From a virus, in IMG/VR virus record IMGVR_UViG_3300031965_001155, positions 1-17,776 of that record: a stretch of DNA of 17,776 bases; one strand, given 5' to 3'. How positions within the stretch are numbered: position 1 is the stretch's first letter; each line of letters opens with the position of its first letter. The position numbers and the translations under genes were made by a program. A model generated the notes under the pieces. It ran no database searches. It worked only from the letters and a program-made list of their open reading frames with translations, and was not told the DNA's origin. Shown in pieces: positions 15,967 to 17,371 of this stretch.

Positions 15967-16956
15967 CTATTTGTTTACGTTTTTTAAATAGTCCCTTATT
16001 TCCCCCAGTATTTTAGTTTGTTCTTGAAAATGTAAATCTTGTTTGTCTAAATTTGTTAACTGTTTCTTTTCTACGTGAAGGTGTAAAGCTATTTGTTCTG
16101 CGTAACCTTTTAGAACAGTCATAGAATTAAAAATAACTTTATCATGGTCTTGTATGTCTTTAGTGTTCTTTTCTACTACGTGCGCGTCATTCTTCCAGTT
16201 AGTATCGTCATGGGATTTAAAGAAAGTATCTGCGTTGTTTACCTTTAAAGGATCGTGTGCTTCAAACTCTTTAAGTCCTACGTCGTCTTTTCTTGAATCG
16301 TCCACCCATAGAATAGTTTTGCCTTTCATGTCTTGAACGTAAAGTTTCTTCTTTTGCTTTAATAACCAGTTAGCAAATTTGTTAAAGATTAATCCGTAGT
16401 GTTCTCTAAATATTTCTATTCCGTATTTTCCCCTAAACTCGAATCTGTCTTTTAATTCTTGAACTAAATTATCTACGTCTTTTAATGCTTGAAATTTAGA
16501 ATGTAGGGCGTTGTCTGAATAATAAGAATTGTTAGAATAAATAGTTAGTGTGTCTTTGTTAATCCAGATAGTAAATTTCTTTTTGATAAACTTTAATGAT
16601 CCGAAGCTTAGCTTTTCTAATTGTTTTAGCTTTTCTTCTGTCTTTACTTTTGGTTTTTCTTTAAGGTTCGTTTCCTTTGGAAAGTATATTTTAAAGTTAT
16701 GTGCATGTCCCCTTTTGTTAAATGATTTGTGAACTTTGTTTCTAGTTACCCTAGGGTTACTATGTGAACTTCGTAAGACATTAATTATATATTTTCCTTT
16801 TCTTTCTATGCAGCCTAAATCTTCTAATCTCCGAAGACGATTAGCTAAGGCAGTAGGTTTAAGGTTAAGTTCTTTTCTTATCTTCTCTTTAGTAAATCCG
16901 ATAGAAAGATAATGTAATACTATGTCAAGTTCACTTCTTTTTTTAGGGGTTACCAT
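15967..16956 (-). CDS. Winged-helix (MarR/ArsR-like) DNA-binding protein with a large uncharacterised C-terminal domain (329 aa); candidate regulator or initiator
   Basis: The N-terminus is LHYLSIGFTKEKIRKELNLKPTALANRLRRLEDLGCIERKGKYII. Its own promoter carries the AGTTCACA box, and a second copy of the extended box lies inside the gene. Confidence 0.8.
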   Translation of the reverse strand: MVTPKKRSELDIVLHYLSIGFTKEKIRKELNLKPTALANRLRRLEDLGCIERKGKYIINVLRSSHSNPRVTRNKVHKSFNKRGHAHNFKIYFPKETNLKEKPKVKTEEKLKQLEKLSFGSLKFIKKKFTIWINKDTLTIYSNNSYYSDNALHSKFQALKDVDNLVQELKDRFEFRGKYGIEIFREHYGLIFNKFANWLLKQKKKLYVQDMKGKTILWVDDSRKDDVGLKEFEAHDPLKVNNADTFFKSHDDTNWKNDAHVVEKNTKDIQDHDKVIFNSMTVLKGYAEQIALHLHVEKKQLTNLDKQDLHFQEQTKILGEIRDYLKNVNK

Positions 16957-16990
16957 GGGGTTATTATGTGAACTTCATTTATATACTTTT
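16957..16990 (-). promoter_or_regulatory. Leaderless promoter with an AGTTCACA box
   Basis: The minus strand reads aaaagTATATAAAtgaAGTTCACAtaataaccccATG. The TATA box is at 16978-16985 and the box at 16967-16974. Confidence 0.6.
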
Positions 16991-17019
16991 CTAATGCAGT
17001 AGTCTAAATAGTTTCCATG

Positions 17020-17118
17020 AGAAATAAAGGGGGGAGAGGGTTAGACATGTCGGATTTACGGCCGCGTAGCCCGAACGTTTCGCTAGGCCTAACCTAACTC
17101 TACCACTTAAATATAAGC
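17020..17118 (-). ncRNA. Candidate small structured RNA (or origin-like element) covering a GC-rich island
   Basis: Positions 17031-17100 are 40/70 G+C in a genome of about 30% G+C. An imperfect extended hairpin is centred near 17077. A TATA box plus GTTAAC unit lies upstream on the minus strand at 17130-17149. A U-rich stretch (CCUUUAUUUCUC) follows. There is no ORF. The ends are estimates. Confidence 0.3.
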
Positions 17119-17129
17119 TAAAATAATTA

Positions 17130-17149
17130 GTTAACAGAAGTATTTAAAG
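17130..17149 (-). promoter_or_regulatory. TATA plus GTTAAC unit (copy of 415-433) facing the GC-rich island
   Basis: The plus strand reads GTTAACAGAAGTATTTAAA, against GTTAACAGAATTATTTAAA at 415-433 (18 of 19 identical). Confidence 0.5.
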
Positions 17150-17178
17150 TTTTCCATAGGAAATGAAGTTTAAGGTTT

Positions 17179-17340
17179 TTATTTCGTGTAGAGAATTAAG
17201 GGGTAATTTGTTGGAGAAATAGCGGGAGTAACATAATTTAAAATAACTTCTAATCTTTCTAAGGCTTGTTTCTTGTTTAAGCCCATGGAATAATACTTAT
17301 CTAGTAAAACTTTTTGTTCACTCTCTTTTAATCTATCCAT
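17179..17340 (-). CDS. Small putative HTH regulator (53 aa), below the ORF-track cutoff
   Basis: Manual translation gives MDRLKESEQKVLLDKYYSMGLNKKQALERLEVILNYVTPAISPTNYPLILYTK*. A leaderless promoter with an AGTTCACA box lies 22 nt upstream. Confidence 0.5.
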   Translation of the reverse strand: MDRLKESEQKVLLDKYYSMGLNKKQALERLEVILNYVTPAISPTNYPLILYTK

Positions 17341-17371
17341 GCAATAATAAGAAGTGTGAACTATTTAAATT
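17341..17371 (-). promoter_or_regulatory. Leaderless promoter with an AGTTCACA box
   Basis: The minus strand reads aaaATTTAAATAGTTCACActtcttattattgcATG. The TATA box is at 17363-17370 and the box at 17355-17362. Confidence 0.6.

What the first reader, a model, noticed from the sequence alone, without database searches (positions are those of the whole stretch)
16763..17362. AGTTCACA operator-like box placed immediately downstream of the TATA box at three promoters, plus an extended intragenic copy
On the coding (minus) strand, three promoters each have AGTTCACA starting 0-3 nt after the TATA element. They drive the wHTH gene (box 16967-16974), the 53-aa HTH ORF (17355-17362) and the polybasic protein gene (3306-3313). 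This is where archaeal repressors typically block RNA polymerase recruitment. The copy at the wHTH promoter is part of a 19-20-nt unit (GGGGTTATTATGTGAACTTC, 16957-16976). That unit recurs with one substitution and one deleted G inside the wHTH coding region (GGGTTACTATGTGAACTTC, 16754-16772). With this base composition I estimate under one chance occurrence of the 8-mer on both strands. I found five, all in one orientation. The pattern suggests autoregulation by one of the two HTH proteins and co-regulation of the polybasic protein gene, or iterons of a replication origin next to a putative initiator.
Basis: seen in the sequence. Interest (0 to 1): 0.62.

Follow-up and report, generated by a model that had tools for sequence, protein, structure and literature searches.

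The report
Self-embedded binding sites of viral wHTH protein
A small circular virus-like element of ultra-small archaea keeps four copies of a short DNA box at the promoter and inside the coding sequence of its own DNA-binding protein gene. The boxes change together with that protein across hundreds of relatives, so they are almost certainly the protein's own docking sites, used for self-control and possibly for starting replication.

Summary
AGTTCACA occurs 6 times (0.4 expected), all on the coding strand.

The core is AAGTTCA(C), and it forms a four-site array at the 5' end of the 329-aa wHTH gene:
- box 1 directly after the TATA box, 19-20 nt before the ATG
- box 2 inverted, at codons 8-10
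- boxes 3 and 4 at codons 62-64 and 74-76

In 58 distinct related loci (47-97% protein identity) the array keeps its positions. Synonymous sites under the boxes are frozen: Ser63 is AGT in 56/56 and Ser64 is TCA in 58/58, while six other conserved serines use 3-5 codons each. A sister subfamily has the same architecture with different boxes (AAGTCCCAA or AAGTAAAAAC), changed at all positions together and read in another frame.

The boxes are therefore cognate sites of the encoded wHTH protein. Most likely they act as an autoregulatory operator. An origin embedded in its initiator gene, as in lambda O or pT181, remains a serious rival.

The polybasic-gene box is confined to a close clade. The 53-aa-gene box is shared with one relative only. 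No binding or expression data exist.

The parts
16978..16985 (-). TATA box (TATATAAA) of the wHTH gene / structural operon promoter
   Evidence: Read. TTTAAATA or TATATAAA sits at the same place in 52 of 58 related loci.
16967..16975 (-). Box 1: AAGTTCACA, 2 nt after the TATA box, starting 19 nt before the ATG
   Evidence: AAGTTCA[C/T/A] lies 19-20 nt before the ATG in 46 of 58 related loci (50 with the box). The sister subfamily has its own box at -20/-21.
16927..16934 (+). Box 2: inverted copy (GTGAACTT on the coding strand, codons 8-10: AGT GAA CTT)
   Evidence: Third-position conservation at codons 8, 9 and 10 is 56-57 of 58, against 17-45 expected from codon usage. Spacing to box 1 is 41-42 nt in 41 loci, 29-30 nt in 10, 35 nt in 3 and 54 nt in 1.
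16745..16772 (-). Box 3 with its 28-nt module (GAAGTTCACATAGTAACCCTAGGGTAAC; core AAGTTCACA at 16763-16771; codons 62-70)
   Evidence: D3: 25/28 identical to 16949-16976. Ser63 is AGT in 56/56 and Ser64 is TCA in 58/58. The preceding codon always ends in A although it encodes eight different residues.
16728..16736 (-). Box 4: AAGTTCACA (codons 74-76, Lys-Val-His), 35 nt after box 3
   Evidence: AAGTTCA is present at this place in 33 of 58 relatives. In the sister subfamily the fourth site is inverted.
15967..16956 (-). Gene of the 329-aa protein. It has an N-terminal MarR/ArsR-like wHTH, an unassigned alpha/beta domain with many invariant polar residues, and a 68-residue C-terminal helix. It is the first gene of a tightly packed 7-gene cluster (16956 down to 10222).
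3306..3314 (-). Box at the promoter of the 949-aa polybasic protein gene (TATTTAAAGTTCACA, ATG at 3291)
   Evidence: Conserved in L002, L003 and the MAG contig L087. Absent in L007/L008.
17355..17362 (-). Box at the promoter of the 53-aa HTH ORF (TTTAAATAGTTCACA, ATG at 17340). An inverted GTGAAC lies 42 nt downstream at 17316-17321.
   Evidence: Shared only with L014 (AGTTCACG); absent in five other close relatives. It is of uncertain significance.
12162..12169 (-). Sixth exact AGTTCACA, inside the 1136-aa glycoprotein gene (Ser-Ser-Gln). Probably coincidental.
   Evidence: Kept only in the close relatives L002 and L003. It has no TATA box nearby and no partner.

Best explanation
The AAGTTCA(C) boxes are the specific recognition sites of the wHTH domain of the element's own 329-aa protein.

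**Proposed mechanism.**
- Box 1 lies between the TATA box and the start of a leaderless transcript. Box 2 lies inverted about 40 bp (four helical turns) downstream, so the pair brackets the transcription start.
- Protein bound there would let TBP/TFB sit on the TATA box but keep RNA polymerase out. The protein would thus repress its own gene and the structural-gene cluster it heads.
- Boxes 3 and 4, about 200 bp inside the gene, would serve as auxiliary sites. Through oligomerisation (the long C-terminal helix) they would stabilise the repressing complex by cooperative binding or looping.
- In the window's own clade the same box was recruited to the polybasic-protein promoter, and perhaps to the 53-aa ORF promoter.

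**Shown:** the sites are real, fixed in position, under nucleotide-level selection inside the coding sequence, element-specific, and change in concert with the protein lineage.

**Inferred:** that the 329-aa protein is the binder, that binding represses, and that boxes 3 and 4 act cooperatively.
For: 1. **Enrichment.** 6 observed against 0.41 expected. Density is 40-fold higher around the gene start than elsewhere in 58 loci.
2. **Position.** Box 1 starts 19-20 nt before the ATG, right after the TATA box, in 46 of 58 loci spanning 47-97% protein identity. Several relatives add a further copy upstream of the TATA box: L009, L010, L022, L029, L070 and L076.
3. **Nucleotide-level selection inside the ORF.**
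   - Ser63 is AGT in 56/56 and Ser64 is TCA in 58/58. Six other conserved Ser positions in the same genes use 3-5 codons each.
   - Among degenerate codons, third positions at least 90% conserved and far above expectation cluster at codons 8-10, 62-64, 67 and 69.
   - The string ACCCCTAAAAAAAGA after the ATG is kept although it is read in different frames.
4. **Concerted change.**
   - Position 8 of the box is A at all four boxes in L073 and L077, and in no other locus. Both carry N39Y in the recognition helix (LAYYL).
   - The sister subfamily keeps sites at -20, +18 (inverted), about +193 and about +232, but with AAGTCCCAA (L088, L089, L091-L093) or AAGTAAAAAC (L090, L094). Each type has its own recognition-helix signature, KQT..Y. 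against KQNLNYY.
   - The distant L095 pairs AAGTTCAAA with SNLSYYL.
   - The intragenic site is there read in another frame, GAA GTC CCA.
5. **Element-specific.** AAGTTCACAT occurs 3 times in a 0.7-Mb Woesearchaeota MAG, all on the element contig.
6. **The protein has a wHTH.** MarR, HTH_24 and ArsR models match in 43-47 of 53 members. Foldseek gives 1y0u with probability 1.0.
7. **Precedent.** Stf76 of pSSVx is a viral wHTH protein that binds two phased sites in its own promoter, one of them overlapping the core promoter (PMC4027180). From established knowledge, archaeal repressors bound between TATA and the start (MDR1, LrpA, Phr) block RNA polymerase recruitment.
Against: - There are no binding, transcript-start or expression data.
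- The alpha/beta domain carries many invariant polar residues: H84, Y140, Y178, E181, R184, E185, H186, Y187, D219, S221, D224, D225, E230 and E232. This pattern looks like an enzyme, not a plain regulator.
- Sites embedded in a protein's own gene are better known for replication initiators than for repressors.
- Half-sites 40 bp apart are unlike the compact palindromes of MarR/ArsR dimers.
- A tree-aware test of position-8 covariation within the window's family has no power. One clade for L073+L077 is not rejected, p-AU 0.31.
Confidence: 0.55

Rival explanations
1. **Origin embedded in its initiator gene.** The 329-aa protein would be the element's replication initiator, and the box array would be the recognition part of the origin. 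The arrangement matches the lambda O gene, which contains ori-lambda's iterons, and pT181 repC, which contains its origin. The box at the promoter would give autoregulation as a side function. The conserved GC-rich hairpin 60-130 nt upstream, or the ACCC..GGGT palindrome after box 3, would be the site that is nicked or melted.
For: - No recognisable replication gene exists in the complete 17.65-kb circle.
- The protein combines a sequence-specific wHTH with a domain full of invariant acidic, His and Tyr residues.
- Three of the four sites lie inside its own coding sequence, which keeps specificity and sites linked. Lambdoid origins lie in the middle of gene O (PMC7466680).
- Weak fold hints point to TBP-like folds: 1tbp E=0.09, with OGG1 and AdoMetDC also listed. 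This is the fold class of Rep_trans and Rep-Arvir initiators, which also carry a MarR-like wHTH and use a bipartite bind-site plus hairpin origin (PMC13107129).
- A conserved hairpin with some compensatory changes lies just upstream.
- In some relatives an HNH nuclease is a neighbour or is fused (P0153).
Against: - PF25227 (DUF7845) and PF02486 (Rep_trans) give no match in the genome even at E=10.
- All fold matches to the alpha/beta domain are non-significant, with TM 0.2-0.3, and the model is weak where the acidic residues lie.
- The sites are few, of mixed orientation and unevenly spaced (41, 204 and 35 nt), unlike iteron arrays.
- No AT-rich unwinding stretch stands out next to them.
- Strict placement of box 1 against the TATA box in every subfamily is not required by an origin.
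Confidence: 0.3
2. The boxes are bound by another factor, either the 53-aa HTH protein or a host regulator. The wHTH gene is merely its target.
For: - The 53-aa ORF lies next to the hub, and in this window it has a box at its own promoter.
- A second, palindromic motif (TGTTAACA) shows that at least one more regulator acts on this genome.
Against: - A 53-aa ORF homologue is found upstream in only about 12 of 55 box-bearing loci.
- The box is absent from the rest of the 0.7-Mb host-candidate MAG.
- Box sequence tracks the recognition helix of the wHTH protein across subfamilies.
Confidence: 0.08
3. The repeats act at the RNA or ssDNA level, as stems formed by the inverted copies. Alternatively they are by-products of codon usage and shared descent.
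For: - Boxes 1/2 form inverted pairs whose innermost position co-varies in 29 of 31 loci (C:G, T:A, A:T). In the sister subfamily boxes 3/4 also form an inverted pair.
- AGT TCA and AAA GTT CAx are ordinary codon strings.
Against: - Box 1 lies upstream of the expected start of a leaderless transcript.
- Copies in direct orientation (boxes 1, 3 and 4) change in the same way and cannot pair with each other.
- Loops would be about 33 nt.
- AGT is otherwise a rare choice at conserved Ser positions of this gene.
- The site is kept in different reading frames in the two subfamilies.
Confidence: 0.04

Closest known systems
Stf76 of the Sulfolobus plasmid-virus pSSVx (PMC4027180)
   Same: It is a wHTH protein encoded by an archaeal virus or plasmid. 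It recognises two separate sites in its own promoter, spaced by whole helical turns (60 bp), with one site overlapping the core promoter. Autoregulation is inferred.
   Different: - Stf76 is a 76-aa stand-alone wHTH. Here the wHTH is fused to a conserved 170-aa domain and a long helix.
- Stf76 sites are TTAA-N7-TTAA and lie upstream of the start. Here three of four sites lie inside the coding sequence, and one pair is inverted around the start.
- No sequence relationship was found.
Archaeal repressors acting downstream of TATA (MDR1, LrpA, Phr; from established knowledge) and viral regulators SvtR (SIRV1) and F55 (SSV1)
   Same: The operator lies between the TATA box and the transcription start. 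The regulator controls its own gene plus a large structural-protein gene: SvtR with its own gene and the 1070-aa protein, here the wHTH gene and the 949-aa polybasic protein.
   Different: - SvtR and F55 are ribbon-helix-helix proteins.
- None of these is known to keep auxiliary sites under synonymous constraint inside its own ORF.
- This comparison rests on memory and was not tested here.
Lambda O protein and ori-lambda; pT181 RepC and its origin
   Same: The recognition sites of a DNA-binding protein lie inside that protein's own gene. In lambda they lie after the part that encodes the DNA-binding domain. Specificity and sites are therefore inherited as one module (PMC7466680 for lambda).
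   Different: - Lambda has four regularly spaced iterons followed by an AT-rich stretch and none at the promoter.
- Here the spacing is uneven, one site abuts the TATA box, and no AT-rich block is evident.
- No homology to O or to Rep_trans was found.
Rep-Arvir / RepSNJ2 (DUF7845) rolling-circle initiators of archaeal viruses (PMC13107129)
   Same: It is an archaeal virus protein that combines a MarR-like wHTH with a catalytic alpha/beta domain and was long annotated as a regulator. Its origin is bipartite, a bind site plus a conserved hairpin next to the gene. There are weak TBP-fold hints here too.
   Different: - The domain order is reversed: the wHTH is first here.
- There is no PF25227 match.
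- Fold similarity is not significant.

Membership tests
Autoregulatory wHTH transcription factor with an operator in its own core promoter | A winged helix-turn-helix DNA-binding domain | tested here: met
   MarR_2, HTH_24 and MarR match in 43-47 of 53 family members, most below the Pfam cut-off. A profile search against the PDB finds ArsR-type wHTH proteins, 1y0u at E=0.002. Foldseek gives 1y0u with probability 1.0 and rmsd 1.6 A over 53 residues.
Autoregulatory wHTH transcription factor with an operator in its own core promoter | Specific repeated sites overlapping its own TATA-to-start region, conserved in relatives | tested here: met
   Box 1 follows the TATA box by 0-3 nt and starts 19-20 nt before the ATG in 46 of 58 loci. 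The same placement occurs with other box sequences in the sister subfamily.
Autoregulatory wHTH transcription factor with an operator in its own core promoter | The protein binds these sites and lowers transcription | not testable with these tools
   This needs EMSA or footprinting and in vitro transcription.
MarR/ArsR-type dimeric repressor | A compact palindromic operator with half-sites a few bp apart | tested here: not met
   The sites are asymmetric 8-9-mers (about 20-28 nt for boxes 1 and 3). The inverted partner lies 41-42 nt away.
Iteron-type origin with its initiator (lambda O, iteron plasmids) | Three or more direct repeats at regular spacing | tested here: not met
   There are four sites in the order direct, inverted, direct, direct, with start-to-start spacings of 41, about 163 and 35 nt.
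Iteron-type origin with its initiator (lambda O, iteron plasmids) | An adjacent AT-rich unwinding region | tested here: inconclusive
   GC is 0.23-0.35 in 60-nt windows around the array, against a genome mean of about 0.32. The lowest stretch (0.23-0.25) is at 16540-16630 and does not stand out.
Iteron-type origin with its initiator (lambda O, iteron plasmids) | Sites lie within or beside the initiator gene and co-vary with its DNA-binding domain | tested here: met
Rep_trans / Rep-Arvir (DUF7845) rolling-circle initiators | A Rep_trans or DUF7845 catalytic domain recognisable by profile | tested here: not met
   PF25227 and PF02486 give no match in the six-frame translation of the genome at E<=10, while the control genomes do match.
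Rep_trans / Rep-Arvir (DUF7845) rolling-circle initiators | A TBP-like fold of the catalytic domain with a conserved Tyr and acidic residues | tested here: inconclusive
   TBP (1tbp E=0.09, 1vol, 8ffz), OGG1 and AdoMetDC appear among the non-significant Foldseek hits. Invariant Tyr and acidic residues exist, but the model has pLDDT below 50 over residues 203-245.
Rep_trans / Rep-Arvir (DUF7845) rolling-circle initiators | A conserved hairpin (nick site) next to the bind site | tested here: inconclusive
   A conserved 4-5-bp stem with compensatory changes lies in the GC-rich island upstream. It has its own TATA box and a T-run, so it may equally be a small RNA gene.

The most novel reading that the evidence does not exclude
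The 329-aa protein founds an undescribed class of replication initiators. It combines a wHTH with a new catalytic domain that is absent from Pfam, in a superfamily of more than 300 clusters at 50% identity. It is carried by virus-like elements of DPANN and other uncultivated archaea. The origin is written into the initiator's own promoter and coding sequence, so initiator specificity, origin and autoregulation travel and diversify as one cassette.
Probability: 0.3. Interest if true: 0.8.

Novelty: new variant of a known kind. Interest (0 to 1): 0.62.

Why it matters
These 15-30-kb circular elements are widespread in saline-lake, sediment and groundwater metagenomes. More than 500 homologues of the protein were found, yet nothing is known about how the elements are regulated or replicated.

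The array gives a concrete, testable protein-DNA pair:
- a defined 8-9-bp core (about 20-28 bp module)
- natural specificity variants: AAGTTCAC, AAGTTCAA, AAGTCCCAA and AAGTAAAAAC
- matching changes in the recognition helix

It is also a clean natural example of a cis-element overprinted on the coding sequence of its own binding protein. Codon choice, and even the amino acids, are dictated by the DNA site (Ser-Ser-His, Glu-Val-Pro or Gln-Val-Lys at the same place). If the protein turns out to be the initiator, this would identify the replicon type of a whole group of viruses of ultra-small archaea.

Tried and rejected
- **Known RNA families.** An Rfam scan of the whole window found only the tRNA-Met.
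- **Known phages.** tblastn of the protein against the phage collection found nothing. A single-protein scan of IMG/VR also found nothing.
- **Coiled-coil ruler idea.** I asked whether the length of the C-terminal helix sets the box 1-box 2 distance. The tail length does not differ between the 30-nt and 42-nt spacing classes. Rejected.
- **Tree-aware covariation.** Testing position 8 within the window's family gave too few independent pairs, and L073+L077 may be one clade (p-AU 0.31). The within-family covariation is therefore reported as suggestive only. The between-subfamily box switches carry the argument.
- **ATP-grasp hint.** PF02222 matches 30 of 53 members, but the match covers only about 42 residues (154-195) at 15-18 bits. 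Not pursued.
- **HUH reading of 'HAH' (84-86).** The second His is not conserved; several relatives have HAF. Rejected.
- **Internal promoter before box 3.** The TATA-like AATATATAA in the window is not conserved in relatives. Rejected.
- **GC skew as an origin marker.** The skew simply follows the coding strand. Uninformative.
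Full report
**What the window is.**
- The first and last 127 bases are identical, and a 226-codon ORF reads through the junction. The record is an IMG/VR virus genome with direct terminal repeats. 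The window is therefore a complete circle of about 17.65 kb at 32% G+C.
- It encodes a tyrosine integrase next to a tRNA-Met, a Dam-type methylase, an Sm-like protein and a 1136-aa DUF2341 glycoprotein, plus several membrane proteins.
- First genes of transcription units have a TTTAAATA-type box about 30 nt before the ATG, the pattern of leaderless archaeal promoters.
- An 86%-identical copy of the wHTH gene lies on a 21.6-kb contig binned with a Candidatus Woesearchaeota MAG. A DPANN host is therefore plausible.

**Checking the observation.**
- AGTTCACA occurs six times, all on the minus strand, against 0.41 expected. No shuffle of 200 reaches six.
- The promoter and intragenic repeat is a 28-nt ungapped match, 25/28 identical.
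- Around the wHTH gene start there are thus four boxes, numbered relative to the ATG:
  - -19, direct, 2 nt after the TATA box
  - +22, inverted
  - +186, direct
  - +221, direct

**Relatives.**
- The 329-aa protein has more than 150 homologues at 50-96% identity, many on contigs of 15-35 kb with the same gene order.
- One scan of metagenome contigs, plus the look-ups, gave 58 distinct sequences of the region -80..+270.
- AAGTTCA[C/T/A] starts 19-20 nt before the ATG, directly after the TATA box, in 46 of 58 loci (50 carry it).
- The inverted copy follows at 41-42 nt in 41 loci, 29-30 nt in 10, 35 nt in 3 and 54 nt in 1. The two main classes are close to four and three helical turns.
- AAGTTCA density is 9.2 per kb within -100..+270 and 0.23 per kb in the other 233 kb of the same loci.

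**Selection acts on nucleotides, not on the protein.**
- Box 3 is read as xxA AGT TCA. Ser63 is AGT in 56 of 56 and Ser64 is TCA in 58 of 58.
- Six other conserved serines of the same genes use three to five codons each, and AGT is rare among them.
- The codon before Ser63 encodes Arg, Pro, Ser, Thr, Gln, Gly, Glu or Ala but always ends in A.
- Apart from Met and Trp and a few modest cases, third positions conserved in at least 90% of sequences occur only at codons 8-10 (box 2), 62-64 (box 3), and 67 and 69 (the ACCC..GG part of the module). Observed counts are 56-58 of 58, against 17-45 expected from codon usage.
- After the ATG, the string ACCCCTAAAAAAAGA is kept although it is read as Thr-Pro-Lys-Lys-Arg in the window and as Pro-Leu-Lys-Lys-Arg in L004.

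**All copies change together with the protein.**
- Within the family, position 8 of the box is C, T or A and is mostly the same at the different boxes of a genome. Box 1 and box 2 agree in 29 of 31 loci; box 1 and box 3 agree in 39 of 49.
- In L073 and L077 all four boxes read AAGTTCAA, which occurs nowhere else. Both proteins have Tyr instead of the nearly invariant Asn39 in the recognition helix.
- A tree-aware test has no power here, and the two loci may be one clade.
- The decisive evidence comes from further away.
  - A profile of the central domain finds 321 clusters (50% identity), nearly all with a wHTH directly in front of that domain.
  - In the sister subfamily the same four places are occupied by another sequence: after the TATA box at -20, inverted at about +18, direct at about +193, and a fourth at about +232.
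  - That sequence is AAGTCCCAA in L088, L089, L091, L092 and L093, and AAGTAAAAAC in L090 and L094. Each type has its own recognition-helix signature, KQT.xY. against KQNLNYY.
  - The distant L095 pairs AAGTTCAAA with SNLSYYL, the same Tyr-Tyr helix as L073 and L077.
  - There the intragenic site is read GAA GTC CCA (Glu-Val-Pro) or CAA GTA AAA (Gln-Val-Lys). That is another frame and other residues than Ser-Ser-His, so the protein sequence yields to the DNA site.
  - In each genome, boxes 1 and 3 share about 20 nt (for the window).

**Who binds.**
- The only protein always linked to the boxes is the one they are embedded in.
- A homologue of the 53-aa ORF is detectable upstream in about 12 of 55 loci.
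- AAGTTCACAT occurs three times in the 0.7-Mb Woesearchaeota MAG, all on the element contig: box 1, box 3 and the polybasic-gene promoter. A host regulon is therefore unlikely.

**The protein.**
- Residues 1-60 form a MarR/ArsR-like wHTH.
- Residues about 85-250 form an alpha/beta domain with no Pfam, PHROG or significant PDB match. It has invariant His, Tyr, Arg and acidic residues.
- Residues 260-327 form a single long helix.
- Weak Foldseek hits include TBP, OGG1 and AdoMetDC (E about 0.1). This recalls the TBP-like Rep_trans and Rep-Arvir initiators described in PMC13107129. However, PF25227 and PF02486 find nothing in the genome, so this stays a lead.

**How it most likely works.**
- A protein bound at box 1 sits between the TATA box and the start, where archaeal repressors block polymerase recruitment (established knowledge). 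Box 2 mirrors it on the other side of the start, about four turns away.
- I therefore read boxes 1 and 2 as an autoregulatory operator of the wHTH gene and of the seven-gene cluster it heads. Gaps between those genes are at most 13 nt.
- I read boxes 3 and 4 as auxiliary sites. This is inference.
- The main rival is that the array is the recognition part of a replication origin written into the initiator's own gene, as in lambda O (PMC7466680) or pT181.
  - For it: the enzyme-like domain, the lack of any other replication gene, and the intragenic position of the sites.
  - Against it: the uneven spacing and mixed orientation, the lack of an AT-rich block, and the strict coupling of box 1 to the TATA box.
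- The two readings are not exclusive.

- The polybasic-gene box (TATTTAAAGTTCACAT) is conserved in L002, L003 and the MAG contig but not in L007 or L008. It looks like a clade-specific extension of the regulon.
- The 53-aa ORF box is shared only with L014 (AGTTCACG). It is replaced by unrelated sequence in L016, L018, L003, L017 and L086.
- Several promoters here read TTTAAATA-N-TTC, so that match needs little more than chance. Its significance is uncertain.

**Limits.**
- Everything rests on sequence comparison. No binding, transcript or replication data could be obtained.
- The loci are metagenomic and partly related to one another. The internal codon control and the between-subfamily box switches are the parts of the argument least affected by relatedness.

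Noticed in passing
window 414-421, 4101-4108, 9712-9719, 10185-10192, 10207-10214; half-site at 17130-17136: A second promoter-associated motif, the perfect palindrome TGTTAACA, occurs at five intergenic places: 10 strand-matches against 0.67 expected. At the 226-aa gene promoter the string TTTA[AT]ATAATTCTGTTAACAAAA is conserved in all six relatives examined. It differs from the AAGTTCACA box by one central base (GTTAACA against GTTCACA). It probably marks a second regulator or promoter class.
   Followed up: partly
window 17020-17150 (minus strand): A GC-rich ORF-free island lies between the 53-aa ORF and the wHTH gene. It has its own TATA box (TTTAAATA at about 17142-17149) and ends in CCCCTTTATTTCTCATGGAA. 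The core AGC(A/G)AAACG-NCC(N)GG...CC(N)GGCA is conserved in relatives with different neighbours. It forms a short stem with compensatory changes (3 of 4 predicted pairs). It has no Rfam match. It could be a small RNA gene or the hairpin part of an origin.
   Followed up: partly
window 17012-17029 and 17151-17168: A near-palindrome, TTTCC(A/T)(T/A)(G/A)GAAA, flanks the GC-rich island on both sides. It recurs at the same two places in relatives as ttcctatggaaac or ttctcatggaac.
   Followed up: no
window 15967-16719 (residues 80-329 of the 329-aa protein): The central alpha/beta domain defines a large family without a Pfam model: 321 clusters at 50% identity with E<=1e-3. It almost always follows a wHTH and is occasionally fused to, or adjacent to, an HNH nuclease (P0153; L022, L033). 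A recurrent sub-threshold match to the ATP-grasp model covers GIEIFREHYGLIFNKFA.
   Followed up: partly
L088-L094 (sister subfamily loci): In the sister subfamily the fourth box is inverted, so the array is two inverted pairs ([-20 / +18] and [+193 / +232]), each about 39 nt apart. In the window's family the second pair is direct with 35-nt spacing.
   Followed up: partly
L014, L017, L022, L029, L033 upstream flanks: The DNA upstream of the wHTH gene is a hot spot of gene replacement. Depending on the relative it holds the 53-aa ORF, an HNH-type nuclease gene or unrelated ORFs. The promoter with its box is kept in every case.
   Followed up: no
window 3831-4061: An Sm-like (LSm) protein gene heads the leftward operon. 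It is present in L002 and L003 but absent in L007 and L008.
   Followed up: no
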